A DNA stretch of 64,000 nt, from positions 1 to 64,000 of the IMG/VR virus record IMGVR_UViG_3300020171_000003. One strand, 5' to 3'. This DNA is from a virus. This document shows positions 16,611 to 60,362 of this stretch, piece by piece. Position numbers and translations under genes: made by a program. How positions within the stretch are numbered: position 1 is the first letter of the stretch; the number at the start of each line of letters is the position of its first letter. Below the pieces are notes generated by a model, which was given only the letters and a program-made list of their open reading frames with translations, did no database searches and was not told the origin of the DNA.

Positions 16611-17690
16611 TTATTTAAATGGTAGTATATGTTGGAATTTAGATCCGGAAGTGAATAAAGCTTTTTTTATCTCTGTGTCAATTTCAACAGAAGAAGAGGT
16701 TGAAAGAATTTCTTTAAGAAAATCAGGATTAAGAGTGATTTCCATTTTCTCATCCTTTTGCAGAACAGTATCACAAGTGATTTCATAAGATGATTCACCT
16801 TTTGCTTTCTTTCCAAAGCAAGTGATTTTCTTATCTTCAAAAATAATCCGAATTAATTTCTCCTTTGCTACTTCTGATTCCGACATAATAGAAGTAACAT
16901 TTATTGCTTTAATGAAATCATCAGCAGGTAAATTGAATTTCTTACCTTTTACTTTTTCCATTAATCCAACAACATCATCAACAGGATATTCACCTTCTGT
17001 ATTTCTTGCACTTAATACAGCTTGATTATCATCCATAAAATGCAACCAATTATCTTTTAATAGATAAGCAACTGGTTTAAATTTAGCAACTTCTTTAACC
17101 GCTTTGTTTTTGATCATGAAATAATCGGAAGTAATTTCCTCATCCATTTCATAAAAAGAAGCTCGTCTACCGTCACAAGAAATAACAGAACATCCGGTAA
17201 CATAAAGATTTGTGAGTGTGTTTTGAAGTTCATCACCTCCAACACTAAATTGGCAAAGAGCTAAACCGTTTACAAAGTCTTTCGGCAAAGGTAACCATTC
17301 TGCTTCTTGATCAAAAATACTATCCTCAATCTTGTCTAAGGCTTCTCCTAAATCATTTGATACAACAACATTGAAAGACGCTTTAGCTTTACCACTCTTT
17401 ACATTAATAATACCTTCGGCTGTTTTGATCAGTTGGATATCTTCTTCACTTGCAGACACAAAAGACAGGAACTCTTTTGCTGGTACAGAAAATGGAAAAT
17501 CAGTTTTAAAAGGATAGTGATAACTGATTCTATCATTATAGGTTATTACATCTTCACCGGTGAAAATGAAATGAGTCATTTGCTCGATGACCTCTTTTGC
17601 GGCTAAGCCTGGCGAAACCTTCCTCAAAGCTGATTCGAGGAGACTCTTTTGGAACTGTGTTGACTGAATTTCTTTTTGTAATTTTGGCAT
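16611..17690 (-). CDS. DNA sliding clamp (DnaN beta-like)
   Basis: 359 aa; SCDGRR, GEYP, LNPDFL..IL, C-terminal HILP. Confidence 0.8.
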   Translation of the reverse strand: MPKLQKEIQSTQFQKSLLESALRKVSPGLAAKEVIEQMTHFIFTGEDVITYNDRISYHYPFKTDFPFSVPAKEFLSFVSASEEDIQLIKTAEGIINVKSGKAKASFNVVVSNDLGEALDKIEDSIFDQEAEWLPLPKDFVNGLALCQFSVGGDELQNTLTNLYVTGCSVISCDGRRASFYEMDEEITSDYFMIKNKAVKEVAKFKPVAYLLKDNWLHFMDDNQAVLSARNTEGEYPVDDVVGLMEKVKGKKFNLPADDFIKAINVTSIMSESEVAKEKLIRIIFEDKKITCFGKKAKGESSYEITCDTVLQKDEKMEITLNPDFLKEILSTSSSVEIDTEIKKALFTSGSKFQHILPFK

Positions 17691-18684
17691 CTGGTCTTTC
17701 TCCTTTTTTCAAACATAAAATGTTTTCAGAATTGTTTTCAAACCAATATGAAATTAATCTACGATATGTACCATCTATTTCTATAACTTTTCCGGACACC
17801 TCCACTTCTCTGTCATAGTTTAACATTTGAGGAAAGTTTCCTGCAAAAAACAAATTTAAATCCATTTGTTTTCCTGCTTCAAGATAAAAAAGCATATTAA
17901 TGAAATCTCGCTGACTACCATCATTACATACTCCTGGTTCTATTATTTCTTCTTTACCGTTATTCATTACAGAAGAACCAACTTTAAATCCTAAACTTTC
18001 AATGTATTCTTTAAAATATCTTTTTTCTATTTTTGAGGAAGTTTGATAGTGTTTATTTTGTTCATTTCTTCTTGGACTTCTTTCTGACATTGTTACTATC
18101 CAAGGGATCTCATTAAACACATATTTATTTTTTCGTGTTTTCGGAATAATAATGAGGCCGTATCTTGAGAACTGGACCCAAGAACTTGAATCAACAGAGT
18201 ACCAAGGATATCTATTCATAAGAGGTAAAGAAGTCATGGCAAAACCGTGAGTATTCTTTTTGCCAATCATACTGAAAACTTTGTCACCGAAAGATATGTA
18301 ATCTTTTTTTGACATATCTTGACCGAGTCCTCCTATACCGATATATTCATAATTATCAATATAGTGTTTCAAGTATTTAAAATCTTCTTTAGGGTGAAAG
18401 ACAGGTAAAGGGTTTAAATGATGTTTTTCTTCCAAATACTTCTGAACTTTTAAGGTTCCTTCTGCATTAAAGATTACGTCAATATTAACATATAATTCTA
18501 ACAAGTCAACATTTTTCTTTACATATTCCGCATAGTTATCAACGTAGGTCCAAAACTCTTCGGAGTCATAAAAGGAAAAATCAAGTGTAGAAACATCTTT
18601 CCTTTCTTTTTGTTTGTTAATAACATGTTCGGTGTAAAGGGAATGCGCTCCTGAATCAAGAAATACTTTTATATTTGGATTCAT
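17554..18684 (-). CDS. dpdA: DpdA-like (TGT-family) DNA guanine transglycosylase
   Basis: FLDSGAHS, NIDVI, PLPVFH, IGIGG, HGFA, SVDSSSW; neighbours folE/queD/queE; start MNPNIK at 18684. Confidence 0.75.
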   Translation of the reverse strand: MNPNIKVFLDSGAHSLYTEHVINKQKERKDVSTLDFSFYDSEEFWTYVDNYAEYVKKNVDLLELYVNIDVIFNAEGTLKVQKYLEEKHHLNPLPVFHPKEDFKYLKHYIDNYEYIGIGGLGQDMSKKDYISFGDKVFSMIGKKNTHGFAMTSLPLMNRYPWYSVDSSSWVQFSRYGLIIIPKTRKNKYVFNEIPWIVTMSERSPRRNEQNKHYQTSSKIEKRYFKEYIESLGFKVGSSVMNNGKEEIIEPGVCNDGSQRDFINMLFYLEAGKQMDLNLFFAGNFPQMLNYDREVEVSGKVIEIDGTYRRLISYWFENNSENILCLKKGERPDAKITKRNSVNTVPKESPRISFEEGFARLSRKRGHRANDSFHFHR

Positions 18685-18685
18685 T

Positions 18686-19777
18686 TTATTTCTTTTTATA
18701 AAGTGGGTTCTCTGTTTTTCCTGTAAACATGATATCCAAGCATCTTTCAAAAGATTGATCAAAAGATGTATAAAGATAATCCCACTTTCTTGGGATTTCA
18801 TCAATATGCCGCATTATCATTTTTGCTGCCGATCTTACATCTTTTTTAACATAAAGAAATTCTTGGGGTAAACATTCCGGAAACGATCTGAAATAAGGAT
18901 AAACAGGACGACAATCACAAGTAAGTGCTTCAAGTAAGGTCCAAGAAACCCAATCCTGATCTGCACAATTGAATTGAATTTTAGATTCCAATAAATTGAA
19001 ATAGTATTCTTCTTTGGTTAAATTTGTTTTGACTTCAATATAATCTTTTAAATAAGAAGGTATAGAAGGCTCTTTACTGCTTGAAGTTGTGACAAGAAAC
19101 TTTGGCGGATCCTGATACATTTGATTCATATAAGATACCACATTGAGAAAAAACTTAGGATCTTTTTCAGTATCCCATCTACTTGTAAAGATAACTTGTC
19201 TTTTCTTTTTCGGCAATACTTCTGGAAAGTGTGTTTTCACTTCTAAAGATTGATAAGGAAGACCTGTTAGATAAACTTTTGGTCCTATATTATTCATTTT
19301 ACAAAGGTCTTGAAGTTCAGTACTTGTTACAAATATTCCGTTAAATATTTTACCATACCCTACTTCTAAAGGACGCATCCAACTTCTCATGCTGTAAGTG
19401 AAATCAAAAATATCAACGGATTGAGCATGAAGCATGGAAAAATATTTTAAATTTAAATCGGTTAGTTCATCTGCATATTTAATCGCTTCAATTCCTGGAG
19501 TCCAGAAATCATCGAAATAAAGAATATCGCCACGCCTTACTATACCGTTATGCATTGCTTCAAGAAAATAAGCTACTTGGGTTAAAGACCAGATACCTCT
19601 GCCGTGTGCATCAAGAACAGAACCTTGTTTAATTTCATCAGTAAAACGCTTACCCTCTACTCTTGTATAAGCAATATCTCTTTTTTTAAGAACAGATTCA
19701 ATCCAACCATCATCTTTTCTTGATAGTTGCATAGTGTATCTTTCTTTATACGGTTCTAACGGAAAGTACCAGAGCAT
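18686..19777 (-). CDS. GT-B glycosyltransferase
   Basis: FTSRWDTEKDP, LTKEEYY, Q-D-W-VSWTLLEA..C.PVYP..RSFPE donor-binding segment. Confidence 0.75.
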   Translation of the reverse strand: MLWYFPLEPYKERYTMQLSRKDDGWIESVLKKRDIAYTRVEGKRFTDEIKQGSVLDAHGRGIWSLTQVAYFLEAMHNGIVRRGDILYFDDFWTPGIEAIKYADELTDLNLKYFSMLHAQSVDIFDFTYSMRSWMRPLEVGYGKIFNGIFVTSTELQDLCKMNNIGPKVYLTGLPYQSLEVKTHFPEVLPKKKRQVIFTSRWDTEKDPKFFLNVVSYMNQMYQDPPKFLVTTSSSKEPSIPSYLKDYIEVKTNLTKEEYYFNLLESKIQFNCADQDWVSWTLLEALTCDCRPVYPYFRSFPECLPQEFLYVKKDVRSAAKMIMRHIDEIPRKWDYLYTSFDQSFERCLDIMFTGKTENPLYKKK

Positions 19778-20599: not shown

Positions 20600-21199
20600 T
20601 TACTCCTTATGAAGCAAAGAAATTTTAATAAGTTCATAACCTTTCATTTCTAAATGGCTATGTTGTTTGAAAATACCACGTACAGCAGAAGTGCTAAATC
20701 CGTTTCCACTTTGTTTTATTCCTCGAGACTGCATACAATCATGATGACCACGAATAACAATCATTACACCCTTAGGTTTAACATGAGTCACAAAGTTTTC
20801 TATGATCTGATGGCAAAGTCTTTCTTGTGTTTGCGGTCTTCTTGAATAATGATCAATCAATCGGGCGAATTTAGAAGCCCCGATAATCTCTTTGCTTGGA
20901 ATATACATCATCCAAGCAAGAAATTTAAAAGGAAGTAAATGATGAGAACACATGGAAACGAGTTCAATTTTATCAGAACAAATAATTTCATCATAACCTT
21001 CTATATTCGGTTGTAAGGAGTATTCTTCTTTGGTAAATTCAGAATTGATATTTTTGAAAAACTCCCGAGAGTACATTTTTGCCACACGCTCGGGAGTTTC
21101 CCTTAAATGAGTATCGTTCAAGTCTAAACCTAACTCGTAAAGAAGTTCTCCTATGTGATGAGCCACGCTGAGTTCATTCTCTGTTAGATCCGGAGTCAT
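20600..21199 (-). CDS. folE: GTP cyclohydrolase I
   Basis: TPERVAKM, SMCSHHLLPF, SKFAR, QTQERL, HDCMQSRG. Confidence 0.95.
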   Translation of the reverse strand: MTPDLTENELSVAHHIGELLYELGLDLNDTHLRETPERVAKMYSREFFKNINSEFTKEEYSLQPNIEGYDEIICSDKIELVSMCSHHLLPFKFLAWMMYIPSKEIIGASKFARLIDHYSRRPQTQERLCHQIIENFVTHVKPKGVMIVIRGHHDCMQSRGIKQSGNGFSTSAVRGIFKQHSHLEMKGYELIKISLLHKE

Positions 21200-21210
21200 T
21201 AAACTTATCC

Positions 21211-21843
21211 TTATTTTACGAGCTTATATACACCATCTTTAGAAGGAATACTGAAACCTTTAGTAATCAAATGTTTAATGTGGCTATGAACTCTTGAAGG
21301 TGTAGTATCCAATTTTGCTGCCGCATCTTTCAGAGTAAGACCAGTAACTACCATAAGGTCAATATCGTATGCTTGAGAACCTTTTCTTGAACCCAACGGA
21401 GACAATTCATACTCTTTTTTGGGCTTATCTACTTTCTCTTTTACTACTTTCTCTTTCTTGGGCTTAGGTTCTTTTGCAGGTCCTTTTGGGCGTCCTTTTC
21501 CTTTTTTACCTTCAGGAGGAACATCCGTCACTTCTTCCTTTTCAACTTCATCCTTGGAATCGTCTGTCGGGTTTCCATAATCGTTTTCGTCAAGTCCGTC
21601 CTCATTTTCTTCTTCTTCTACTTCATTCTTAATCAAACCGTCATTGTAAAAAGCAATGATAGCTTCATCAAGAACAATACCATCTTCATCCAACTTTTCT
21701 ACAGTTGCAATAAACCATTCACAGATAGCATCTTTCTTTGTTCCGATCAGTTTAATTTGTTCGGTTACTTCTTCCATTTCGTTCAACATTGTGCATACTT
21801 TTTTCAACTCTTTAAAATCGGTTTTATCGTACATTTTTAACAC
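21211..21843 (-). CDS. Acidic/lysine-rich protein with C-terminal winged HTH
   Basis: GRP AT-hook-like Lys-rich linker; LTLKDAAAKL..TPSRVHSHIKHL. Confidence 0.6.
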   Translation of the reverse strand: MLKMYDKTDFKELKKVCTMLNEMEEVTEQIKLIGTKKDAICEWFIATVEKLDEDGIVLDEAIIAFYNDGLIKNEVEEEENEDGLDENDYGNPTDDSKDEVEKEEVTDVPPEGKKGKGRPKGPAKEPKPKKEKVVKEKVDKPKKEYELSPLGSRKGSQAYDIDLMVVTGLTLKDAAAKLDTTPSRVHSHIKHLITKGFSIPSKDGVYKLVK

Positions 21844-21851
21844 CTTTCCGG

Positions 21852-22511
21852 CTATTTACAGCCAATTAGTTTGTGAATCTGATAATTAAATTTGACATGA
21901 AATAATGAATCTTTTTCCATTTTATTATATAACATGGATGCCTGCATTACATTTTTTTCTATATCTTCGGACAAACACGGACTGAATACATGATTGAATT
22001 GTTTATACACTATAGCTTTTTCTTTGGCAAATTGGTAATCTCCTTCATTTAAAATTACATGTTTGATTAAATCTTTCTCCCTTAGACAATTTAAATTTTT
22101 ATAATTAAAAACATCTTCACTTATTGCGCTCGGACCTTTCCAATCAACAATGAAACAATCTACATTAGGAATTAAATTCTCAACACAATGTGTACCGTTA
22201 GTTTCTACTGAAATAAAATAACCTGAATCTTTTAGTAATCTACATAGTAAAGACAAATCGCCTTCTTGTTCAAATGGTTCACCTCCTGTGATTAAAATAT
22301 TTTGACAATGTAACTGCTGGACTGCTTTATGAATTTCTTTAGAAGAACACTCTGAACCCAATTCTCCATCTTGAGCTTGCTTGGTGTCACAATAAGAGCA
22401 TCCACCTATACCTAAAGTGCATCCTTGCATTCGGATAAAAGTAGCCCAACTTCCTTGACCAAATAAGTTCCACTCACCATTAATGCTTCTGAAAATTTCA
22501 TTGATTTTCAT
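21852..22511 (-). CDS. queE: 7-carboxy-7-deazaguanine synthase (radical SAM)
   Basis: EIFRSINGE, FIRMQGC..CSYCDT, ITGGEP, ETNGT, QIHK. Confidence 0.92.
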   Translation of the reverse strand: MKINEIFRSINGEWNLFGQGSWATFIRMQGCTLGIGGCSYCDTKQAQDGELGSECSSKEIHKAVQQLHCQNILITGGEPFEQEGDLSLLCRLLKDSGYFISVETNGTHCVENLIPNVDCFIVDWKGPSAISEDVFNYKNLNCLREKDLIKHVILNEGDYQFAKEKAIVYKQFNHVFSPCLSEDIEKNVMQASMLYNKMEKDSLFHVKFNYQIHKLIGCK

Positions 22512-22820
22512 AACCGTTCTCCCTTAAGAAATCAAAAACCTCTTTTTTTGGAACAGTACAGTTTGCCCAACTGTTAATTGTTCCCCCGCAAATACACATA
22601 TCACCTGTTTTTATATTATTTTTTAAAAGATCAGAAATGTAATAACTTTCATATCCAGTAGGTCCGCCTTCAAATTTTAATATATCCTTATTCTTTTCTT
22701 TTGCTTTTATAATAATCATTTCCAATTCTCTATTTGATATGAGCAAAAATTTTCTGTTAATATATTTATTTGTGGCCTTGTCCCAATTACCTGTTTCTTG
22801 TGTCCATTTACTTTTGATTT

Positions 22821-23204
22821 TCATGCTGTTAGCTCCGCATAACATTTATCGGTTTCATATAATCTTACTTTTTCTAAAACAATGTGTTTCGGAAATTTAT
22901 TTAAAAGAAGATAATAAATCCATCTACACATATTTTCGGCTGTAGGGTTATCAAAAAGATCATTTAAATGGGTGTGGTCTAATTTATTAATTATCCAGGT
23001 ATTAACTACTTCTGACATTCTTTGAAAATCAAGAATCATTCCAAACTCAGGATCATTCACATCTTGAACAGTATTCTCCTTATCTGAAACAGTTATTTCT
23101 AACCGAAAATTATGGCCATGCGGATTTTTACACCTTCCCTGATGATTCGGTAAAAAATGTGAAGCCGCAAAGTCAAAGCTTTTACAAACAGTCATTGTTG
23201 GCAT
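22821..23204 (-). CDS. queD: 6-carboxy-5,6,7,8-tetrahydropterin synthase
   Basis: FAASH, CKNPHGHN, GMILDF, LDHTHLN, PTAEN, LYET. Confidence 0.95.
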   Translation of the reverse strand: MPTMTVCKSFDFAASHFLPNHQGRCKNPHGHNFRLEITVSDKENTVQDVNDPEFGMILDFQRMSEVVNTWIINKLDHTHLNDLFDNPTAENMCRWIYYLLLNKFPKHIVLEKVRLYETDKCYAELTA

Positions 23205-38112: not shown

Positions 38113-38503
38113 TCTCCTTTTATTTATAATTCCGAAAGTTTTTCGTCTACCGCATCCTTAAATGATGCAAGATCATCCTTATCCATTTTTAGTTTTTTAA
38201 TTAATACTTCTGTAATTTCTTTCCAATTAATTTGTTCTTTGACAAGGCTTTCCTTTTCCTTAAAGTTATGAATATACTTCCTTGCTTCATCACATTCCTC
38301 TTCAGTTGTTTCCTTATATAAATTTCTATACCTTACTCCTTCAACATATCCGGCATACCATGCTGTATAGATAACCTCTTGTGTTATTTTTTCCTTTTCA
38401 TCAACTTCTAATCCTTCTTTAATATCTTCTAACAATTTTTTGTCAGTCATAATCATTCTCCCTTTTTCTATTTATTAAACTATTAATATAATTGAACAAA
38501 TTG

Positions 38504-38718
38504 ACTATACAATAATCCTAATAGTACTGTCAAGCGAAAAAAAGACTATTTTACAGATAACCTCACTAAAACCGACTCTCTACAATCGAGGAGAATCGAC
38601 GGTCGTTGATCAAGACATAGCAAGACAAGCGTTCATATATAGATAAAAGAGTGACCAAAAATAACTTAAAATTACCTTAAAATATATCTTGACAAGTGTA
38701 TGAGGTATAGTGTATAGT
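38504..38718. promoter_or_regulatory. Divergent sigma70-type promoters flanking the 37-bp repeat copy 2
   Basis: Minus: TTGACA(38533)-18-TATAGT; plus: TTGACA(38689)-18-TATAGT. Confidence 0.75.
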
Positions 38719-39548
38719 CAAAATAAAACAGTAAATCAAACAAAGGAGAAGCAGAATGGTAATCGTAAAAAACATTGAAACAGGCAAAGTGACACGTTGT
38801 GCCGGGGTTTACAGAAATTCGCAAGGTTACATGATTGATGTTTTAAACACACACGAATATCCAGAAATCTTTAAGAAATCCGGAGATGTTTTCAAAGAAC
38901 TGTTTCAAGAACAGTTCATGCCAAGATTTTTGTCAAGTAACTACAAAGTGATTGCGGTGTAAAGGAGAATTAAAATGGAACATTGGACAGAGTATAGAGC
39001 AGAGGAAATTGACAGTAATGATTTATCATTATATTTTACTTGTTCTCGTAGATTGTGGAAAGCTTTGCTGAAAAACAGATTTGTTGGTTATCAAAAATTT
39101 TATAAAGGAGAATGAAATGAATAAGGCAGAAAAATTAGTAAAAAGGATCGCGGAAGAAAACAAAAATTTAAATAGAGGAGAAATTATGCATCAAGTATAT
39201 GATGCGGTACAAAAAAAGATAGGCAAAACAGAAGATGGATTTTATCACTATCCTCCGGAGTATGACAAAGCACTTCGGGAATTGGAATATAAATTAGGAT
39301 TCTAAAAAAGGAGAAGAATAATGGAAAATCAAGAAATAATTGACAGGATTGTGTTTGCATACAAAATGGAAGAAGGGTCAGATTTAGAGCATGAAGGTTT
39401 TGTCTTCAAGGAAGAAGAGTTCAAAAATTTCTTTCAAGGATTTCTTGTTGCTCATGAGGAAATGGGTTCTATTACAGCAGATCAGTATAAGGAATTGACG
39501 GATTTTGTCAAGGAAGCAAAATACAAAGTGATTTCGGTGTAAAGGAGA

Positions 39549-40187
39549 ATGAAAATGGAATTAGAAAACAATTATTGGGTGGACAGTAATAACAATAGCT
39601 GGAATAAAAGTTTATACTCAAAAGAAGAGGCAGAGAAATATAGCAATACTTTACGGAATTGTCGGTATTGTCAGGGTTGTCAGGATTGTCAGGATTGTCA
39701 GGATTGTCAGAATTGTCAGGGTTGTCAGGATTGTCGGAATTGTCGGTATTGTCTGGATTGTCAGAATTGTCAGGGTTGTCAGGATTGTCTGGATTGTCAG
39801 AATTGTCAGGGTTGTCAGGATTGTCGGAATTGTCAGGATTGTCGGAATTGTCTGGATTGTCAGAATTGTCAGGATTGTCAGGATTGTCAGGATTGTCAGA
39901 ATTGTCAGGGTTGTCAGGATTGTCGGTATTGTCAGGGTTGTCAGGATTGTCAGAACTTTAAAACAAATCCCCAAAGGATCTTTTCAGAAAAACAAGGCTC
40001 CCGAAAAGATCAAACAGAAATTTATTGGGACGATTTACACACACAAGTTAATTGCGGATGTTTTCATGGAAACTTAGCGGAATTTGAAAACAGAGTTATT
40101 GAGGTTCATGGGGATAATAAATTTGGAATAGAGTATTTAGCATGGATTAAACGAGTAAAACTATATATTGGAATTAAAAATTTCTGA
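39549..40187 (+). CDS. Cys-x-x tripeptide repeat protein with C-terminal GCFxG domain
   Basis: ~33 copies of a 9-bp unit (TGTCAGGAT and variants) encoding CQD/CQN/CQG. Confidence 0.8.
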   Translation: MKMELENNYWVDSNNNSWNKSLYSKEEAEKYSNTLRNCRYCQGCQDCQDCQDCQNCQGCQDCRNCRYCLDCQNCQGCQDCLDCQNCQGCQDCRNCQDCRNCLDCQNCQDCQDCQDCQNCQGCQDCRYCQGCQDCQNFKTNPQRIFSEKQGSRKDQTEIYWDDLHTQVNCGCFHGNLAEFENRVIEVHGDNKFGIEYLAWIKRVKLYIGIKNF

Positions 40188-40874
40188 ATTGAAAATTTCT
40201 ACATGGAATTTCTACAAAGAAGGGAGGTGATAAGTAAACAGATACAAAAGGAATAAAAACTTAAAATAAGATCAATCATAAACTGAAAATAAAGAAGGGA
40301 TAATAAACATGAAAAGGACAGAAATAGAATATGTGAAGAAAAATGACGGTAAGATCTATGTAGTAGGTTTTAAGAATGTTGCCACAAGGAAGGATTTGTT
40401 TTTAGAAGTTGGTTTAGCAATATATAATGAGTATATAAATTCAGGTGAGTATTATTTTTTAAGTGGCTCGGATAAAGATCAAATAATAGTAAGACATCCT
40501 CATTCCTGTTATCTGTATTTTATTTATAAGGATTGTTCTTATGAACCAAAGGAATTTTATAATAGAATACAATGGATAAAGAATGCAGGTGAGAATCTAA
40601 AGAAGATAAAGGATAACATTGCTAATAGAAAGGTTCAGACAATCATTATCTAAACCAAGCAATAAACAGAGAAAAGAACAAGGAATTAAATAATAACCAA
40701 AATTAATTCCTTTTCTTTTTCATATTTTAAACCATTTATTAGAATTCCATAACCTGGTTAAGAAAATTAATATAGGAATATTACAAAAACACCGGAGGTA
40801 TTTCACTTTCCCATATGACCAAAACTACTTCCTGATCCTCATTATCGAATAGTATTTAAACATTGAATAAGCTT

Positions 40875-41000
40875 CAGTTAATGAATACCATTCAGAAAAT
40901 GAATAAGCCTCAGAAAATGAATAAGCCTCAGAAAATGAATACCATTCAGAAAATGAATAATCCTCGAAAATATTCAGAAAATAAATACCGTTCATTTAAT
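40875..41000 (+). repeat. 18-bp tandem repeats (CAGAAAATGAATAAGCCT / ...TACCATT)
   Basis: About 5 consecutive units, then degenerate ATGAAT/ATTCAT motifs. Confidence 0.75.
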
Positions 41001-41143
41001 TATCACCATTCAGAAAATGAATTGCCTTTAGTAAACACCATTTATTCATTAAATATCATAAATATAATAAATGAACTTCATTCATTAAATAAGCCAAAGA
41101 TAATGAATGACATTCAACTAATGAATATCATTCATTTTTACTT

Positions 41144-41218
41144 CTACATGCAAAAAACTATAATCATTTCCAGATATAAAATAGAAGTGATTAAAACAGC
41201 ATAAAAAAACATTTTCAT
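41144..41218 (-). CDS. 24-aa hydrophobic peptide
   Basis: MKMFFYAVLITSILYLEMIIVFCM*, preceded by the same AGAAAGTGAGA leader as the upstream gene. Confidence 0.5.
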   Translation of the reverse strand: MKMFFYAVLITSILYLEMIIVFCM

Positions 41219-41239
41219 AGTATCTCACTTTCTGTTTGA

Positions 41240-41888
41240 AGTTTATTTTTAAATAGTCTCTTGCTTGATAATTAATAAAAACAATTTACTTACTTTCATT
41301 CACTTTCAATGCTGTAAAATAATCATTGAATTTCTTTTCATGTTCTGTTCTCAGAACAACAAACACTTTTTTATTTTCTTTCAAGACTCGCATTTTGTGT
41401 GACTGTTTGCTTTTGAGATAAGACAAATGTGAATTGACACGACTTTCTTTTGTAGCAGCTTTTTCTGCTATTTCTTTTATTGTCAAACGACTGAAAAGCA
41501 AGCAATCATTGATAACATGTGCATTGCTCGTCAAGCTGTTATCAAAAAAATCAATCTCACGACTTGACGTTTTTGACGCTTTTTCTTTTACTTTTTCAGC
41601 TTGCTTAATATCGAAAAAATACTTACATGCTGTTTTCATTTCAATGTTATCGCACGTTGAACATTGACTATCTTTTTCATCAAAAAAAGAAAATGCTTTA
41701 CAATAATTTATAGCATTTTCAAACGTAAAATCTTGAACGTCTGTTACTTTTTCAACGTCTTTTTCAACTTCAATATTCTTATCTTTATTCTTATCTTTTT
41801 TTGCTATATTTTTTGGATTCATAATAGTCTCACTTTCTATGCTGTTAAGCACGTTTAAATGAAGCAAGAGACTATTTAAAAATAAACT
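41240..41888. repeat. Perfect 27-bp inverted repeat (41240-41266 / 41862-41888)
   Basis: AGTTTATTTTTAAATAGTCTCTTGCTT and its exact reverse complement. Confidence 0.92.
41286..41822 (-). CDS. Cys-motif + winged-HTH protein, Gly- and Trp-free
   Basis: Start MNPKN after AGAAAGTGAGA; C-x12-CxxC-x7-C; LTIKEIAEKAATKESRVNSHLSYL resembles the HTH of 21211-21843. Confidence 0.7.
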   Translation of the reverse strand: MNPKNIAKKDKNKDKNIEVEKDVEKVTDVQDFTFENAINYCKAFSFFDEKDSQCSTCDNIEMKTACKYFFDIKQAEKVKEKASKTSSREIDFFDNSLTSNAHVINDCLLFSRLTIKEIAEKAATKESRVNSHLSYLKSKQSHKMRVLKENKKVFVVLRTEHEKKFNDYFTALKVNESK

Positions 41889-42707
41889 GATATGTCAAAG
41901 AACAAATTTTCTAACAAGAGTCAAAAGCAGCTAATTTCTGTTTTGTTGCTTTTTTCATCATGTTAGTAATCTAAAAGATCATATAAATAACTTGATTACA
42001 GAACTATCATACTTTTATCAACAGAGTCAAGACTTTTTTTTAATTAATATCACTTTTTTTTTAATTAATATCATTTTTCTGCATTCACTCAATGAATACA
42101 AGCTTAATCAATCAAATAACACTAAAAAAATGTAATAAAATCAATAACAACTTATTCAGATGAACGACATGACACGATAATCACATAGTCAATACTAACA
42201 CAAGCATAATTTCTATGCCCGAAATAACTATCTATAATCATAGTACTATTAATCATACGTTTATCAATCATTCTCATATATCGTCAATTCTCGTTCATTA
42301 AAATATAATTAATAATAATAAACTAAATAAAACAAATTAATAAACTATTAATCAATCATTGAATATAATTCATTCTATTACTCATTCATTATTACTTAAC
42401 TCATTCTATATTGCTTCATGCATTGTCTAACACTCTGTTCATTTATTAATTGAATGATATTCATTATTGCTTTCTACATAGATTAATACTTTCTATATTA
42501 TCTGAATGTCATTCATTTGTTCGTGCGGTTTACGGGCGGTAGGATAAGAGAAGGTGAGTTGGTAGTGGAGCGCGGATAGTAATATGATATGACTATCATG
42601 TATCATGACTATCATGCATCATCTGATTGACTCATTCAATCAGTTGTCTCAGGTTGTTATACGAGACGGTATTGTCTCAATATGATACAGTTTTTTTTAT
42701 CTAATAA

Positions 42708-42720
42708 TATCAATAGGTTA
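42708..42720 (+). promoter_or_regulatory. IHF consensus site
   Basis: TATCAATAGGTTA matches WATCAANNNNTTR, with an upstream T tract. Confidence 0.55.
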
Positions 42721-42727
42721 TGAAAGT

Positions 42728-42755
42728 AGTTTACATAATACTCGTTATCAGACGT
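42728..42755 (-). other. dif-like XerC/XerD recombination site
   Basis: Minus strand ACGTCTGATAA-CGAGTA-TTATGTAAACT: 11-6-11 layout; compare E. coli dif GGTGCGCATAA-TGTATA-TTATGTTAAAT. Confidence 0.65.
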
Positions 42756-43098
42756 ACAAAAAAACAGTCAAAACCCCCCTGGTTTCATCTCAAAAAGTTC
42801 GGAAAATAGTGATTTGGGGACCACGCCGAAATATTTATACCAGATGCAAAAGTGAAGCATAGCCGTGACGAATAGCAGCAGACCATTATCATTTTAAAAC
42901 GAATCCTGTTAAACCATTAATTAAAAATAACGAATATAGAAAAACAGGGATTTAATAAAAGGAAACCTGAAAAAATGCAATCCGGATGAGTAAAAGTGAA
43001 GCATAGACCATCCAAACATGAAAAACCATGAAAACAATTCAAAAACACAAAGTTTCCTATGCTCTGAGTCTTTTTTACATGCCAACCGAAACTATTTC

Positions 43099-43127
43099 TT
43101 GACATTTATAGATGAATATCATAGAAT
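43099..43127 (+). promoter_or_regulatory. Sigma70-type promoter of the packaging operon
   Basis: TTGACA-17 bp-TAGAAT. Confidence 0.65.
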
Positions 43128-43152
43128 AATAGATATGAAAGGAGTACAAAAG

Positions 43153-43758
43153 ATGGCAATAAAAGCAATGCAAAGCGTAACCAGAGTACCAACCACATAC
43201 GATTCACTCATATCCGGATTAGCCGTGAATGAAGAAAAGCAATCCGTAGTCCGTCCGTTATACACTTGGGATTACGTCCAAGAATGCACGGAACGCTGTC
43301 CGGCTTATGAAGGAACCACATGTCATTTCAATAAGGATGTCCGGACGAATAAGCGGTGTAAGGTGATGGACATGTATTTGAAAGGTGTAGCGGATACGGT
43401 GATGTTAGCATACCCGAAGGATGAGATAATTGACCCAAGAACATTGTGGAGAGTCGGAATGCATCTCATGCCGTTGTACCAGATGTTAGGACGGATGAAG
43501 ATAGAGGAGGCCACGTTTCATACTGTTATATTTACGGATGATAAAGGCCGAAGGAAAGCCAACCCAATATATAAGGAGATACGGGAGACATTGAAACAGA
43601 TTGAAAGTGCTTGGAGGGACTTGAATCTCGGAGGAAGTTTGGGGGAAGGTTATCTGGACTTCGGAGATAAGAGTCCGTCGGGCAGAGGTGCTAATTTAAC
43701 TGATCCGGATGATTATTATACCCGGATGCAGAAAGGCGGGAGGCAGGTGAAGACATGA
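43153..43758 (+). CDS. Probable terminase small subunit
   Basis: First gene of the + block; G..KANPIYKEIR...I...W.DL.L resembles P27-type small terminases; AAGGAG RBS before 43153. Confidence 0.5.
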   Translation: MAIKAMQSVTRVPTTYDSLISGLAVNEEKQSVVRPLYTWDYVQECTERCPAYEGTTCHFNKDVRTNKRCKVMDMYLKGVADTVMLAYPKDEIIDPRTLWRVGMHLMPLYQMLGRMKIEEATFHTVIFTDDKGRRKANPIYKEIRETLKQIESAWRDLNLGGSLGEGYLDFGDKSPSGRGANLTDPDDYYTRMQKGGRQVKT

Positions 43759-44273
43759 GAAATCCTTGTTTGAAGTGTAAACGGCATTTGAAGGGTTTGG
43801 ATAAGAATGGACCGGAGTGTACGGAGTGTTTGCTTCGGCTTCAATATGCCCATAGTATTGAAGTGAAGGATGAGGATGAGACCCTTCAAGTACGGAATTG
43901 GAGAAAGTGTAAGGTGTGCGGTACGGAAAAGATATTGGAAGAGGAATATAATCGGAAGGGTAGAAAGAAAGGTGAGTATGTTGACACCTGTAAGGAGTGT
44001 ATGGGTGAATCAATTATGCGGGCACGGGAAGAAAAAGCCGTAGCGAAGGTTACTATTATGATTAAGGATAAAGGACTGCATACATGGTTGAAAGAAAGAG
44101 CGGGTAAGGAATTCCGAACAGTAGAGAACCAGATATTGTTCTTTCTTACTATGGTGAAGGACTTAGAGAATACGACCGTGATTGAAAAGAAAACTTTGTT
44201 TGAAGACGGACGGAAGCCCCAGCCTGTGTATAGAAGTTTTGACGAGATTGGTAAAATAGATAAGGAGGAGTAG
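43755..44273 (+). CDS. Zn-finger + RHH-like protein
   Basis: Four CxxC motifs; LKERAGKEFRTVENQILFFL (Arc-like). Confidence 0.5.
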   Translation: MRNPCLKCKRHLKGLDKNGPECTECLLRLQYAHSIEVKDEDETLQVRNWRKCKVCGTEKILEEEYNRKGRKKGEYVDTCKECMGESIMRAREEKAVAKVTIMIKDKGLHTWLKERAGKEFRTVENQILFFLTMVKDLENTTVIEKKTLFEDGRKPQPVYRSFDEIGKIDKEE

Positions 44274-44637
44274 AAAAATGATTAGAGGACAAAAATATTT
44301 AGTGACTACGGAAGAATATTTTGTAACCCCAAACGGGAAACAATATAAAGCTGCTTTTGGTGAATATAAAGGTAAGGCGGCTTTCGGTGTTGATTTTACT
44401 TACATCGGAAATATTGCTTTAAAAACGGATAAAATTTATTCTGCGGTAAAGACGGATGAAGTTGATTTTGGAAATAAGCAAGATGAATGGAGTGAAAAAG
44501 GAGAAATGCGAGATACTTGGATTTATAATGCAGAATAATTAGTTTCCTCCGACTTGTAAAAGGGTAATGGTAAAAAGCCCAGGTGATAGTTCGGGAGTGC
44601 TAAAGCACAAGTCGGAGGATTTTTTAAAGGAATATAA

Positions 44638-45033
44638 ATGATTAAACTGTGCCCAAAATGTAGAGGAACACTCATATTAGAAGATCGTGTCCTTTTTTGC
44701 ATAGATTGTTTGTATGTAGTTGATCGCTTTTTAAAAAGGGAAAAGCTTGACGATGATATCCGTTCGCTAAGGAGTAAAGGATTATCGTGGGCCTCAATAG
44801 GAAAACGAGTAAACAGAACAGCAATGGCAGTTAGACGACGGTTCATCATTGCTTTTGGTAAAGATCATGAGTTAATGCAGGATATTCAGAAAGTGAAGGA
44901 TCAGAAAGAAACAACATTGCTTTCTTATCTAATGAAAGAAGATGGGTTATCCTATTCTTTTATTTCAAAGGAACTTGGCATAAGTATAAATGCTTGTAAG
45001 CAGAAGGTCAGGAGAGAAAGGATGAAATTATAA
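44638..45033 (+). CDS. Zn ribbon + double HTH protein
   Basis: CPKC..CIDC; GLSWASIG; GLSYSFISKELGIS. Confidence 0.6.
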   Translation: MIKLCPKCRGTLILEDRVLFCIDCLYVVDRFLKREKLDDDIRSLRSKGLSWASIGKRVNRTAMAVRRRFIIAFGKDHELMQDIQKVKDQKETTLLSYLMKEDGLSYSFISKELGISINACKQKVRRERMKL

Positions 45034-45229
45034 ATTATGGATTGGAAAACAAAAGAAACAGCAAAGGCAATTATAACGTCACTTAATGTAGGTGATAAAT
45101 TAAAAGACCTCACAAATAAGCATTTAGCAGACCTTCTTTTAAAACACATTTGGTCGAAATATGATGTTTTCAGCCATGAAAGTGATTTGTTAGAGGAAGT
45201 TATTGAAAGATTAAGGAAAGGATGAAAGA

Positions 45230-47107
45230 ATGTCGGTAAACGGTTTACGGAAGGCTGTTAAAGAAGTAGAAGAAATTACATATAGATCAGGCGGAGAGGG
45301 AATGATTGCTTGGTGTGATGATAAGGTTAGGTTACCTATTTACCCGACTGAATCAGAAATAGCAATTTGGTGGCCGTTAGGTGATTTACCCCAAGAGAAG
45401 AATCCTAAGACAGGAAGGAGTTATCAAGACCTCTGGGACTTTCATAAGATGGTTCTTAAAGAAGCTTTGCAGATGGATGATCATCATAGATTTCTTTATA
45501 GACTTATTGTTTTTTGTTGGATGCGTGGTGAAGGTAAATCAATTCTTGCGGTTCTTATTCAATTATGGAAATTCTTTAACTGGCCAAGACAATTAATAAC
45601 TCTTGGTGCAAATAGTAAGGATCAGATCAAGTTTGTCCATTTTGAATGGATGAGAGATATTATTTTAAACTCACCAGAACTTTTAAACGATATTGGTGGG
45701 AAAATGAATATTAAGGAGAAATATATTCAGATGAAAGATAGTAGAGGACGTATCCAGTCAACAATTCGTCCTATCTCAACTGCTACAGGTATTGTGTCAA
45801 ACATTACTGGGTACACTTTCTCTGAAATCTTTGCTATGAAGAAACCAGACTTCTTCACCCAGTTAGATGGTTCCATTCGTAATATTCCAAATGCTTTAGG
45901 TGTTATTGATTCTACTGTTTCCTCAAAAAAGCATGTTCTCTATCAGTTATATAGTAATGTTCTTTTAGGTAAAACAAAGAATGTTTATTTTTCTTATCGG
46001 TGTTCCCCTGCTGGTAATTATGAAGATTTTTCTCATCCACATATGGATCAAGATCAGTTAGATGATTATGAAATCAAGTTTCCTTTTGGTGAGTTTGATA
46101 AATACTTTAAGAATACTTGGTCAGCAGGTTCTCATAAAGTTTTTTCCCATACGATGGTTGAAGAAATGAGTATTATTTCAGCAAAAGGTTCTTTTTATGA
46201 TCATGCTCAAATTAAAGAGTTATTGGATAAGAAAGAACATTTGATTGATATGCGGACGAGTGTTGAGCAGAAAACATTTAGTAATGAAAGAAGTTTAGAA
46301 GGCATTGCGAAACGATTAGGAGATATAATTGATTGTTTTGAACCAGTTGATACTTTATACACCCTTTCAGATGGACAAGGAAGACCTAAAGCAGCTACTT
46401 TAGATGATTTAATGTTTTTAGGAGAAAGATTTGATACTGATTGGGTTATTCTTGCAGGAACAGACTTTGGAGATCCTTACTCAACTGCGAGTAATGCAAG
46501 AACCATTGGAGTAGTCCTTGCAAAAGGTTTACCTGGTTCTAAATCTGATCCTTCTCTTTATTTGAGAACACCTACAGCACCTCAATATATTTATTTTTTA
46601 TTAGTCCTTTCTGTTTCTTCTGAGCATTCTATTAATACTATAAAGGAAAGTATGGAATATGCTCACAATGAGTTCTTAGGAATTGATTCTTTATGTAGTG
46701 AGCATTACGGAGCTTGGGATATAGGACAATGGTCTGAAGATAGAGAAATACCGTTTACTCCTATTCATCCTAATTATGAAAAACAAAAAGATTGTTTTAA
46801 AGCTTTGCTTGAATGCGGGAAAGAAGGACGAATTAAATTTCCATCTAAGATAGGTATTCCTGGTTCTAAATCAAACAATATATTAATAGAAGAACTTGAA
46901 GAATTTGATCATGATGTAGATTTAAAATGGTTCGGAAGTACAGAAAAGAGTGAAAGATATGGTATTCAGGATGATGTTGTTTATGCAATAGGGTGGGGTT
47001 TATATGGCGGAAGAATGCTCGGGGTTGATGATTTTAGAATACGAGTTCGTAAAAGAAGTTTCGGTGAAATGTCAGTTCCTTCAGGGTTGTTAGGTAGATA
47101 TACCTAG
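45230..47107 (+). CDS. Terminase large subunit
   Basis: Walker A WMRGEGKS, ANSKDQ, nuclease GTD...QDD; upstream of portal. Confidence 0.85.
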   Translation: MSVNGLRKAVKEVEEITYRSGGEGMIAWCDDKVRLPIYPTESEIAIWWPLGDLPQEKNPKTGRSYQDLWDFHKMVLKEALQMDDHHRFLYRLIVFCWMRGEGKSILAVLIQLWKFFNWPRQLITLGANSKDQIKFVHFEWMRDIILNSPELLNDIGGKMNIKEKYIQMKDSRGRIQSTIRPISTATGIVSNITGYTFSEIFAMKKPDFFTQLDGSIRNIPNALGVIDSTVSSKKHVLYQLYSNVLLGKTKNVYFSYRCSPAGNYEDFSHPHMDQDQLDDYEIKFPFGEFDKYFKNTWSAGSHKVFSHTMVEEMSIISAKGSFYDHAQIKELLDKKEHLIDMRTSVEQKTFSNERSLEGIAKRLGDIIDCFEPVDTLYTLSDGQGRPKAATLDDLMFLGERFDTDWVILAGTDFGDPYSTASNARTIGVVLAKGLPGSKSDPSLYLRTPTAPQYIYFLLVLSVSSEHSINTIKESMEYAHNEFLGIDSLCSEHYGAWDIGQWSEDREIPFTPIHPNYEKQKDCFKALLECGKEGRIKFPSKIGIPGSKSNNILIEELEEFDHDVDLKWFGSTEKSERYGIQDDVVYAIGWGLYGGRMLGVDDFRIRVRKRSFGEMSVPSGLLGRYT

Positions 47108-59088: not shown

Positions 59089-60362
59089 AAAATATTTATA
59101 TTTATGATCCAGAACCTTTTCTTCATGATTATGTTTCTCATAAATTTTTAACTCCTTTATTGAAGTATGGTACTACTAAAGGAATGACTATTAAAAAGAT
59201 AAACTCTTTTGATGAAGCGAAAAACGGAATAGTTTTATCTTTCAGTGGACATTTAAAATCAGATGTTATTAAGAAATTAAAAGAGGATAATAACTTTATT
59301 GGTTCTTTTGATATTACAGATAGCACATGGTTAAGTGAAGCTTATAGATGGGATCATGAAGCTTGTTCTTCTTTAGATGCTATTTTTAAATTTAGCGGAA
59401 TTCCAAAGTATCAATATTCACAAGAACTCCAGATAGGTGAAGATTTAACTTATTATAAACATGATTATCCTTACATGGAAGATAAAGAATGGCAGTATTT
59501 TTGTAACTTGAAAGAAAACAATAAAATTATACCTATGCCTCATATTCCGTGGCAGCAATATAATATTGTTCCTATTCACTATTTAAAGAAAAGAGACGTT
59601 CTTGTAAGGGGAGGAAATCATTATTTACGTTTTCATTTGTTTCTTAATTTTTTAAAATTTGGATTAACAAGTAAATGGTCCGGTTTCTTTATGGCTGATT
59701 ATCATAAATCTAAAATGGATGCAGATCATAGATTTTGTGATAATTGTTGTGAAATATGGAACAGAAATAATAATAGATTTCCTTATGAAGAATACTTAAA
59801 TATTCCTATTTATGAGAAATGTAATAATGGTCATATTCCTTGGCCTATTACGGATGAAACCACTTTTCAGAATAAGAACAATCATAGATGGAATAATAAA
59901 TGTATTCCTATTTATTATTGGTTAACAGAAACTTTTGTTAATAAACACGGATATGTGGACATGAAGAAAGTAGAGGATTGTTTCTCTATTTTTTATCTTC
60001 ATCCGGATGATTTAGGGAATGTTTTAGCTCACCATTTATTTACAGCAGATTATAAATGGATTTATAGCATTGATATTCCTCCAAGATTTTGGGAATGTAG
60101 TGCGGCGAAAACAGTAAGCTTAATGCCAAGATGGACAAGAAATCAAACTCATTTTCCAAATTTGATTGAGAATGAGCATTATATTACTTTTGATGAGGCT
60201 TTTGAAGACCTTGAATTAGTAATGGACACAAAACAAGAACAATATGACCATATAACAAATAATTGTTATAATTTATATCAAAAATGGATTAAAGGTGAAG
60301 AATACGGAATATCAATTAATTTGATGAATCATATATTTAATCAGATTGAAGAAAGGATATAA
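59085..60362 (+). CDS. Putative glycosyltransferase (GT-B-like C-terminus)
   Basis: PRFWEC...LIENEHYI...YDHITNN.Y; cluster context. Confidence 0.5.
   Translation: MKNIYIYDPEPFLHDYVSHKFLTPLLKYGTTKGMTIKKINSFDEAKNGIVLSFSGHLKSDVIKKLKEDNNFIGSFDITDSTWLSEAYRWDHEACSSLDAIFKFSGIPKYQYSQELQIGEDLTYYKHDYPYMEDKEWQYFCNLKENNKIIPMPHIPWQQYNIVPIHYLKKRDVLVRGGNHYLRFHLFLNFLKFGLTSKWSGFFMADYHKSKMDADHRFCDNCCEIWNRNNNRFPYEEYLNIPIYEKCNNGHIPWPITDETTFQNKNNHRWNNKCIPIYYWLTETFVNKHGYVDMKKVEDCFSIFYLHPDDLGNVLAHHLFTADYKWIYSIDIPPRFWECSAAKTVSLMPRWTRNQTHFPNLIENEHYITFDEAFEDLELVMDTKQEQYDHITNNCYNLYQKWIKGEEYGISINLMNHIFNQIEERI

What the first reader, a model, noticed from the sequence alone, without database searches (positions are those of the whole stretch)
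41172..42526. ~1.35 kb almost free of GG/CC dinucleotides at the probable genome end, in both coding and non-coding DNA
Seen: reading base by base I find only one GG (41815) and one CCC (42218) in 41172-42526. Composition alone predicts several tens, and CG, GC, GA etc. are present. The gene inside (41286-41822) has no Gly (GGN), no Trp (TGG) and one Pro (CCN), while its HTH paralog at 21211-21843 is Gly-rich at equivalent positions. Its RBS (AGAAAGTGAG) also lacks GG, unlike the AGGAG used by most genes here. The depletion ends abruptly at a G-rich tract upstream of the terminase genes. Established: in lambda-like phages the end opposite the terminase genes is packaged last and ejected first. 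Inference: this is a first-injected segment under selection against GG/CC. Either GG is the context modified by the phage DpdA/GT system and the first gene must stay unmodified for host RNA polymerase, or the DNA avoids GG/CC recognition (Cas9 NGG, type I-F CC PAMs, or a GG-sensing defence) until the gene product acts.
Basis: partly seen in the sequence, partly recalled or inferred. Interest (0 to 1): 0.92.

Follow-up and report, generated by a model that had tools for sequence, protein, structure and literature searches.

The report
GG/CC-free island in deazaguanine phage
An uncultured 80-kb groundwater phage and many of its relatives keep one 0.6-4.6 kb stretch next to the DNA-packaging genes, protein-coding genes included, almost free of the two-letter DNA steps GG and CC. 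The most likely reason is that this stretch must escape the phage's own guanine-replacing DNA modification.

Summary
Window 41172-42526 holds 3 GG/CC steps where 48±6 are expected. The three gaps (645, 403, 308 bp) dwarf the next largest in the whole 80.5-kb genome (88 bp).

The feature is not private to this genome. About 27 distinct relatives (TerL 47-57% identical, from many metagenomes) carry a GG/CC-free island 1-6 kb upstream of terL. No other dinucleotide class gives such islands.

Homologous islands that differ by 109 and 221 substitutions created no GG/CC (13 and 23 expected), so the ban is held by selection.

Most islands encode a Gly/Pro/Trp-free winged-helix protein of one family. 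In this window that gene uses a GG-less ribosome-binding site.

Within the clade, strong islands occur in 9 of 12 genomes that have dpdA and 7-deazaguanine genes, and in 0 of 4 that lack them.

In phage iggy the DpdA motif is known by experiment to be GA. There the strongest dinucleotide depletion is GA/TC, and it lies at the physical genome end.

Best reading (about 0.55): this is a zone kept free of DpdA targets, and so unmodified, at the terminal/early control region, which predicts GG as this clade's DpdA motif.

The physical ends and the order of DNA entry remain untested. Earlier notes from this scan describe the same feature in other genomes.

The parts
41172..42526 (.). GG/CC-free island: 1355 bp, 26% GC, 3 GG/CC steps against about 48 expected.
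41286..41822 (-). Island gene of 178 aa with no Gly, no Trp and one Pro. It has an N-terminal Cys motif and a C-terminal winged HTH with the family signature R-x3-H (ESRVNSHLSYL).
   Evidence: AF2 model at pLDDT 70 shows H-T-H plus a beta wing. Foldseek matches to ArsR/SmtB/MarR are weak.
41829..41838 (-). GG-less ribosome-binding site AGAAAGTGAG, 6 nt upstream of the ATG. The same word precedes the island gene of relative L163.
   Evidence: Pairing with a 16S 3' tail ...CUUUCU is inference.
41240..41269 (.). Left arm of the 30-bp inverted repeat that brackets the island gene.
   Evidence: 97% complementary, 589 nt between the arms
41859..41888 (.). Right arm of the inverted repeat. It overlaps the promoter-like TTGACA-16-AATAGT (41898-41871, minus strand) of the island gene.
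40853..41138 (+). Array of 18-bp iterons holding AATGAAT (11 copies), just left of the island. It has CC but no GG.
42368..42517 (-). Second, inverted group of AATGAAT sites, at the right edge and inside the island.
42527..42575 (+). G-rich tract (9 GG steps, no CC) that ends the island abruptly.
17554..18804 (-). DpdA-like guanine transglycosylase, the suspected reader of GG.
   Evidence: phrog_887, E=1.4e-38. Homologues are present in island-bearing relatives.
20600..23204 (-). 7-deazaguanine precursor genes: folE (20600-21199), HTH paralog of the island protein (21211-21843), queE (21852-22511), queD (22821-23204).
43018..47107 (+). Start of the packaging module: a conserved 246-aa protein, an endonuclease VII-like 172-aa protein, an HTH protein that is the probable small terminase (44638-45033), and TerL (45230-47107).

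Best explanation
The island is a zone kept free of the target motif of the phage's own DpdA. DpdA is the enzyme that swaps guanine in DNA for a 7-deazaguanine base.

In this clade the DpdA motif is predicted to be GG, read on either strand. Nearly every motif copy in the genome would be modified. The only way to keep a stretch unmodified is therefore to write it, promoters, ribosome-binding site and protein included, without GG or CC.

The stretch is the control hub between the leftward early/replication genes and the rightward packaging genes. By analogy with phage iggy, this is probably at or next to the physical genome end. It carries one to a few small genes, usually a winged-helix DNA-binding protein.

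What is shown:
- the ban itself;
- its conservation and the selection that holds it;
- its link with dpdA inside the clade;
- the parallel in a phage whose motif is known.

What is inferred:
- that GG is the DpdA motif;
- that the stretch is terminal or enters first;
- why it must stay unmodified.

My ranking of the possible reasons is as follows. First, the earliest promoters and gene(s) must be read from incoming, fully modified DNA by unaided host proteins, and by the island's own regulator. Second, the terminal-repeat or packaging reactions need plain DNA. Third, the stretch must stay invisible to nucleases that depend on the modification until an island product acts.
For: 1. The ban is real and local: 3 GG/CC against 48±6 expected, and the three longest GG/CC-free gaps of the genome.

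2. It recurs 1-6 kb upstream of terL in about 27 distinct relatives. GC ranges from 26 to 41% and length from 0.55 to 4.6 kb. Examples: L033 has 2 against 139 expected; L064 has 2 against 83; L150 has 12 against 165 over 4.6 kb.

3. Among the ten strand-symmetric dinucleotide classes, only GG/CC gives such islands. The other hits were repeat arrays.

4. Selection holds it. Homologous islands differ by 109 and 221 substitutions, including many gains of G and C, yet none created GG or CC. Simulations expect 12.9±3.1 and 22.9±4.2, and 0 of 2000 simulations were as low as observed.

5. Coding sequence obeys the ban. Island proteins are Gly/Pro/Trp-free, and 21 of 31 islands hold a member of one HTH family. 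WIN and L163 both use the GG-less RBS AGAAAGTGAG.

6. Link with dpdA inside the TerL clade. Strong islands occur in 9 of 12 genomes with dpdA+folE+queD+queE (G000, G004, G021, G022, G024, G025, G027, G032, G053). They occur in 0 of 4 genomes that hold the polymerase module but no dpd genes (G001, G003, G005, G007). Fisher one-sided P is about 0.02, not corrected for phylogeny. No other gene family tracks the island.

7. Calibration on a known case. In phage iggy, DpdA modifies at least 97% of GA sites and no other motif, and the genome has 1091-bp terminal repeats (PMC10484667). The most extreme dinucleotide depletion in its genome is GA/TC: 9 against 62 per 500 bp, P=7e-17. It lies at 59930-60628 at the record end and continues at an observed/expected ratio of about 0.55 over positions 1-900. 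As here, this is between the leftward early operon and the rightward late genes.

8. DpdA enzymes are known to have short motifs: GA, or GA/GGC/GGT (PMC10484667, PMC7544227).
Against: - The DpdA motif of this clade is unknown. GG is a prediction.
- Two clade members with dpdA have no island (G002, G026), and G026 has the DpdA closest to this window's (48%). One further member is only intermediate (G006, ratio 0.25).
- 15 near-complete dpdA+ genomes of other TerL clades have no dinucleotide-free island. Neither do CAjan (motifs GA/GGC/GGT), NP1 and phiFN37. So DpdA alone does not demand one.
- The dpdA association rests on 16 genomes that are not phylogenetically independent.
- One DpdA-negative genome (G007) has a mild depletion (ratio 0.36).
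- In iggy the depletion is strong but not absolute, and it is mostly non-coding.
- Early replication genes outside the island contain GG, yet they must also be expressed from incoming DNA. The 'readable by host RNA polymerase' reason is therefore incomplete.
Confidence: 0.55

Rival explanations
1. The island avoids a host reader of GG/CC, independently of the phage's own modification. The stretch would be the first DNA to enter the cell, or a free end from which CRISPR spacers are taken. It lacks GG/CC so that NGG (Cas9) or CC (type I-F/I-B) PAMs, GG/CC-containing restriction sites, or another GG-sensing defence find nothing until the island's products act.
For: - The island has sharp borders, sits beside the packaging genes, and carries small, variable early-looking genes with their own promoter-like sites.
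- This resembles the EcoRI-site-free first-step-transfer DNA of T5 and the leading end of T7 (my own knowledge).
- Spacer uptake from the injected cos end is documented for type II-A systems (my own knowledge; not checked in the library).
- Two dpdA+ clade members lack the island, as expected if the host matters.
Against: - The same dinucleotide is banned in about 27 relatives from many habitats, whose TerL proteins are only about 50% identical. Host systems would be expected to differ.
- No strong island was found in the 4 dpdA-negative clade genomes.
- In iggy the purged step is that phage's own DpdA motif, GA, which no known PAM equals.
- Removing PAMs from about 1.5% of a genome gives little protection against interference.
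Confidence: 0.2
2. The island is a direct terminal repeat, or the end segment copied during packaging, and so cannot be fully modified after synthesis. It would enter the next host hemi-modified or unmodified. Every site that the modification protects elsewhere has therefore been purged from it.
For: - iggy has a 1091-bp terminal repeat, and its GA/TC-poor zone spans that end (PMC10484667).
- Island sizes of 0.55-4.6 kb fit known repeat lengths.
- Both borders are sharp.
- Assemblies of the clade close into circles through k-mer overlaps, as collapsed repeats do.
Against: - No depth or read-end data are available.
- An absolute ban on a dinucleotide is more than avoidance of actual restriction sites requires.
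- In iggy the strongest depletion may lie just outside the repeat.
Confidence: 0.1
3. The ban reflects a DNA-physical or protein-binding need of a replication or partition hub. For example, a protein might coat or pair the iteron-flanked segment and be blocked by GG:CC steps.
For: - Inverted arrays of AATGAAT iterons flank the island. Lineage-specific repeats flank those of relatives.
- A dif-like site lies nearby.
Against: - No known binding mode needs the absence of one step over kilobases, coding DNA included.
- It does not explain the dpdA link or the iggy parallel.
Confidence: 0.05
4. The depletion is a mutational artefact: context-specific deamination or hypermutation (CC to TC/CT on either strand) of a segment that is often single-stranded.
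For: Island GC is below the genome mean (26% against 33%).
Against: - Diverged islands show balanced substitutions, with many gains of G and C, yet zero new GG/CC.
- The genes are intact and the protein family is conserved.
- The borders are base-sharp.
Confidence: 0.03

Closest known systems
Motif-specific 7-deazaguanine insertion by phage DpdA (iggy: GA; CAjan: GA, GGC, GGT)
   Same: This phage encodes a DpdA-like transglycosylase with FolE, QueD and QueE. Known DpdAs read two- or three-letter motifs and modify nearly all copies (PMC10484667, PMC7544227). iggy shows a terminal zone poor in its motif.
   Different: No paper found in the library reports a motif-free zone, and the iggy paper does not mention one. 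The motif here is not known. The chemistry is QueC-less. The ban is near-absolute and extends into coding DNA.
First-step-transfer DNA of phage T5/BF23 and the leading end of T7
   Same: A bounded segment next to a genome end carries the first genes and lacks target sites for a nuclease (my own knowledge).
   Different: In those phages specific 6-bp host sites are missing. Here a whole dinucleotide is banned on both strands. Two-step entry, the ends and the timing of expression are all untested. There is no sequence similarity to T5 or T7.
Genome-wide restriction-site avoidance in phages
   Same: Selection removes short words from phage DNA.
   Different: That avoidance is genome-wide and concerns 4-6-bp palindromes. 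Here it is confined to 1.7% of the genome, while GG/CC are slightly over-represented elsewhere (observed/expected ratio 1.22).
Winged-helix regulators of the ArsR/SmtB and MarR type
   Same: The predicted fold of the island protein's C-terminal half is three helices plus a beta hairpin.
   Different: The matches are weak (E about 3e-3). No Pfam or PDB sequence match passes threshold. The family is known only from these phages.

Membership tests
Phage DpdA / 7-deazaguanine DNA modification system | TGT-like DNA transglycosylase (DpdA) encoded by the phage | tested here: met
   The protein at 17554-18804(-) hits phrog_887 at E=1.4e-38. There is no Pfam hit at E<=1e-3.
Phage DpdA / 7-deazaguanine DNA modification system | Precursor pathway FolE, QueD, QueE (with or without QueC) | tested here: met
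   PF01227, PF04055 and PF01242 are present. QueC is absent from the whole genome.
Phage DpdA / 7-deazaguanine DNA modification system | Modified guanine present in virion DNA, at a defined motif | not testable with these tools
   This needs LC-MS and native-DNA sequencing. GG as the motif is a prediction from the island.
T5-type first-step-transfer / leading segment | The segment lies at the physical end that enters first | tested here: inconclusive
   Only contigs were available, and they give no read starts or depth. The contig terminal repeats are assembler overlaps. Many relatives' contigs end at the distal edge of the island, but iteron repeats there could break assemblies.
T5-type first-step-transfer / leading segment | Pre-early genes are expressed before the rest of the genome enters | not testable with these tools
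   No RNA or infection data exist for an uncultured phage.
PAM avoidance (NGG or CC) | The host carries a CRISPR system with a GG/CC PAM | not tested
   The host is unknown. The DNA comes from a groundwater metagenome.
Winged helix-turn-helix DNA-binding proteins | H-T-H plus beta-hairpin wing | tested here: met
   AF2 model: helices at 100-110, 115-121 and 126-138, strands at 144-149 and 152-157, pLDDT 86-95 over residues 101-140. Foldseek gives ArsR/MarR hits at E about 3e-3. Pfam HTH_40 scores only 17 bits, below its cut-off.

The most novel reading that the evidence does not exclude
Some phages that chemically replace guanine in their DNA reserve a 'plain-DNA' segment at the genome end by banning their own enzyme's two-letter target from it, to the point of evolving proteins without glycine, proline or tryptophan. 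If so, the banned word reveals the modification motif from sequence alone: GG here, GA in iggy. The segment would be a previously unrecognised functional unit, the one part of a hypermodified genome that must be read as ordinary DNA on arrival.
Probability: 0.5. Interest if true: 0.9.

Novelty: new variant of a known kind. Interest (0 to 1): 0.82.

Why it matters
How modified phage genomes are first read in a new host, and how DpdA enzymes choose their sites, are both open questions. A conserved segment held by selection without one dinucleotide gives three things.

- **A prediction from sequence alone.** It predicts the modification motif for uncultured phages, and one native-DNA sequencing run can test it.
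- **A marker for the hub.** It marks the probable genome end or first-read control hub in a large, unstudied phage clade of about 80-93 kb from groundwater, sediments and reactors.
- **Natural proteins without Gly, Pro and Trp.** These folded proteins are of interest for protein design and for understanding how hard DNA-level selection can push coding sequence.

The parallel found here in the cultured phage iggy makes the idea testable at the bench now.

Tried and rejected
- **GenBank phages.** No DNA or TerL match to the window. Single-protein searches of IMG/VR with the island protein and with TerL found nothing. Relatives came only through alignments.
- **The look-up of encoding contigs.** Metagenome loci could not be opened as whole records.
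- **Mapping of ends.** The one run holding the phage (groundwater, probably the source) and three low-share runs are kept as contigs only. They give no depth profile, read starts or variants in the island.
- **Other dinucleotide depletions in relatives.** L046 (AA/TT), L066/L067 (GA/TC) and G058 (AC/GT) turned out to be iteron arrays or a pentapeptide-repeat gene.
- **A determinant other than dpdA.** No gene family is present in the island genomes and absent from the others. DpdA sequences do not cluster by island state. The QueC-less chemistry and the neighbouring GT are shared only with G004.
Spacing is more even than a Markov model in most island genomes, but also in the dpdA-negative G005. 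Coding constraint can explain it, so the test is inconclusive.
- **Generality.** CAjan, NP1, phiFN37 and 15 dpdA+ genomes of other TerL clades have no island.
- **Function of the island protein.** There is no PDB profile match, and no named homologues, only the same phage family. The fold search gives only a generic winged helix.
- **RNA families.** Rfam found nothing in 40500-43100.

Full report
**1. The observation**

The window is bases 1-64000 of an 80,532-bp IMG/VR virus record. The record closes on itself through a 127-bp overlap, which is an assembler k-mer and not a true terminal repeat.

In 41172-42526 there is one GG (41815) and one CCC (42218-42219). That is 3 GG/CC steps, where 5000 shuffles give 48.3±6.0 and never fewer than 28. 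The three GG/CC-free gaps (645, 403, 308 bp) are the longest in the genome, and the next longest is 88 bp.

G and C are not missing from the stretch (352 G:C pairs). They simply never sit next to a copy of themselves. GC rises to 1.64 of expectation, and CG to 0.98 against 0.63 genome-wide.

The gene at 41286-41822(-) has no Gly, no Trp and one Pro. Its ribosome-binding site is AGAAAGTGAG, while 48 of 68 long ORFs use a GGAG-type site. The right border is abrupt, with nine GG steps in the next 50 bp.

**2. Surroundings**

Leftward lies a long minus-strand block of replication genes. It holds a PolA fused to a UDG domain, clamp, clamp loader, DnaB-like helicase and an O-like initiator. It also holds a 7-deazaguanine cluster: DpdA-like (phrog_887), FolE, QueE and QueD, with no QueC anywhere in the genome.

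Rightward, the plus-strand packaging and virion genes begin at 43018, with TerL at 45230-47107.

The island sits at this divergence point, within about 1.8 kb of mostly non-coding DNA. Eleven AATGAAT-bearing iterons lie just to its left, and five in the opposite orientation lie at its right edge. A 30-bp inverted repeat brackets the island gene, and its right arm overlaps a promoter-like TTGACA-16-AATAGT.

**3. The feature belongs to a clade**

TerL has no relative among GenBank phages. It has more than 800 relatives in metagenomes.

Three alignment-driven scans fetched about 200 loci around TerL relatives that are 47-57% identical. GG/CC-free islands lie 1-6 kb upstream of terL in about 27 distinct lineages:

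| Locus | Island length | GG/CC observed | GG/CC expected |
|---|---|---|---|
| L008 | 1184 bp | 0 | 49 |
| L033 | more than 1666 bp | 2 | 139 |
| L064 | 1147 bp | 2 | 83 |
| L150 | 4.6 kb | 12 | 165 |
| L163 | 779 bp | 0 | 48 |
| L249 | about 1 kb | 0 (in the best 500-bp window) | 47 (per 500-bp window) |

GC of the islands runs from 26 to 41%.

I scanned all ten strand-symmetric dinucleotide classes. Only GG/CC gives such islands, and the few other hits were repeat arrays. On a TerL tree the trait is scattered rather than forming one subclade. Many 'absent' calls rest on too little upstream sequence.

**4. The ban is held by selection**

Homologous islands L181/L225 and L225/L231 differ by 109 and 221 substitutions. 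These include many A-to-G, T-to-C, A-to-C and T-to-G changes. Neither partner gained a GG or CC. Placing the same substitutions at random yields 12.9±3.1 and 22.9±4.2 new GG/CC steps, and 0 of 2000 simulations were as low as observed.

This rules out chance and a one-way mutational decay. It shows that each new GG/CC is removed.

**5. What the islands encode**

Islands hold one to five small genes whose products lack Gly, Pro and Trp.

Twenty-one of 31 islands carry a member of one family, 110-180 aa long, with a helix-turn-helix and a nearly invariant R-x3-H (RVKSH or RIKRH; alignment A3). Database relatives are all from such phages, are unnamed, and obey the same ban.

The AF2 model shows a winged helix (pLDDT 86-95 over residues 101-140). 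Its matches to ArsR/SmtB/MarR regulators are weak.

This window's genome has a normal, Gly-containing paralog of the HTH between folE and queE. WIN and L163 share the GG-less RBS AGAAAGTGAG. That word would pair with a 16S 3' tail ending CUUUCU; this is inference.

In L150 the HTH gene lies just outside a 4.6-kb island that holds other small genes. So the conserved thing is the ban and its position, more than any one gene.

**6. Link with guanine modification**

I fetched whole records of clade members and scored two things. One was the island (minimum observed/expected ratio over 600 bp). The other was the dpd genes, by tblastn.

| Genome group | Strong island | Intermediate | None |
|---|---|---|---|
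| dpdA+folE+queD+queE present | G000, G004, G021, G022, G024, G025, G027, G032, G053 | G006 (ratio 0.25) | G002, G026 |
| Polymerase module present, no dpd genes | none | G007 (ratio 0.36) | G001, G003, G005 |

That is 9 of 12 against 0 of 4, with Fisher one-sided P about 0.02. The sample is small and not phylogenetically corrected.

No other gene family tracks the island. The 7-substituent chemistry varies among island genomes: G000 and G004 are QueC-less, while others carry QueC-like genes. DpdA sequences do not cluster by island state.

**7. Calibration on a phage with a known motif**

Phage iggy's DpdA modifies at least 97% of GA sites and nothing else. The genome has 1091-bp direct terminal repeats (PMC10484667).

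I scanned MN029011 for all ten classes. By far the strongest depletion is GA/TC (9 against 62 per 500 bp, P=7e-17), at 59930-60628, the end of the record. It continues at a ratio of about 0.55 over positions 1-900 and returns to 1.1 at about 900.

As here, this is the junction between the leftward early operon, which includes dpdA, and the rightward late genes. The paper does not mention it.

So in the one phage tested here that has both a known single motif and known ends, the motif is purged from the terminal control region.

The pattern is not universal. CAjan (GA/GGC/GGT), NP1 and phiFN37 show no island, and neither do 15 near-complete dpdA+ genomes of other TerL clades.

**8. Reading**

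The simplest account of points 3 to 7 is that GG is the target of this clade's DpdA and that the island must stay unmodified.

A ban on every copy of a two-letter word, strong enough to reshape proteins, fits a reader that acts on every copy. An efficient modifying enzyme does that. It fits less well with avoidance of particular host restriction sites or PAMs. Those would differ among hosts, and they would not explain GA in iggy.

Why plain DNA is needed there is not shown. I see three candidate reasons:
- a) The first promoters and gene(s), and the operators of the island's own regulator, must be read on incoming, fully modified DNA.
- b) The terminal-repeat or packaging reactions need plain DNA.
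- c) The stretch must avoid modification-dependent nucleases on entry.

The weak points are four. Some dpdA+ genomes lack islands. Early genes outside the island contain GG. Nothing is known of the ends. The motif has not been measured.

**9. Rivals**

- Host-reader avoidance (PAM, restriction) in a first-entering segment remains possible (0.2).
- A terminal repeat that cannot be modified, and is therefore purged of protectable sites, is a close cousin of the best reading (0.1).
- A DNA-physical or coating role (0.05) and a mutational origin (0.03) are poorly supported.

**10. Earlier notes of this scan**

A word search shows that first readers and follow-up agents have described GG/CC-free cassettes next to the packaging site in other uncultured 85-90-kb deazaguanine phages. 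They have also described GA/TC- or TC-free early cassettes in giant phages. All suspected DpdA.

These are AI notes on probably related genomes. They are not independent evidence. I re-derived the points above from the sequences.

One lead from those notes, unusually even GG/CC spacing elsewhere in the genome, did not survive a control.

**11. Verdict**

No report of such a motif-free zone was found in the library searches. The feature is striking and directly testable.

Noticed in passing
window 42728-42755; L033 about 1760-1790: A dif-like 11-6-11 site (AGTTTACATAA-TACTCG-TTATCAGACGT) lies about 200 bp right of the island. It is conserved almost letter for letter in relative L033, and it contains no GG/CC itself.
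   Followed up: partly
window 42774-42779; also L033, L046, L064, L071, L077 downstream of their islands or iterons: A run CCCCC(C)T recurs just upstream of the packaging module in many relatives. iggy's genome end also has G8/G10 and C6 runs. This may be a packaging or end signal.
   Followed up: partly
MN029011 (phage iggy) 59930-60628 and 1-900: The terminal control region of iggy is strongly depleted of GA/TC, the experimentally known DpdA motif of that phage. The paper describing the motif does not mention this.
   Followed up: yes
window 14018-16600 (-): The family A DNA polymerase carries an N-terminal uracil-DNA glycosylase superfamily domain in the same ORF (PF03167 + PF01612 + PF00476).
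   Followed up: no
window 39549-40187 (+): A 212-aa protein is made largely of CQDCQ(N/G) repeats (phrog_15341). Logan contigs of the source run break and vary here.
   Followed up: no
window 43755-44273 (+): A Cys-rich 172-aa protein with weak endonuclease VII / Lar-like PHROG hits lies between the conserved 246-aa protein and the probable small terminase.
   Followed up: no
window 38500-46500 in run X1: Logan contigs left of about 40.9 kb have mean depth about 33, and the 27-kb contig to the right has 44.9. The break lies in the iteron array. The cause is unknown (strain variation or coverage bias).
   Followed up: no
P0089 (TerL relative, 957 aa): One TerL relative carries Hint/LAGLIDADG domains (PF05204, PF05203, PF14528), which indicates an intein inside the terminase.
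   Followed up: no
L150 3530-4000 and 9187-9915: An N-terminal motif CPSFGNQ-x3-DGQC-x2-C is shared by the HTH protein beside the island and by the conserved first protein of the packaging module. The window's island protein has a similar Cys pattern.
   Followed up: no
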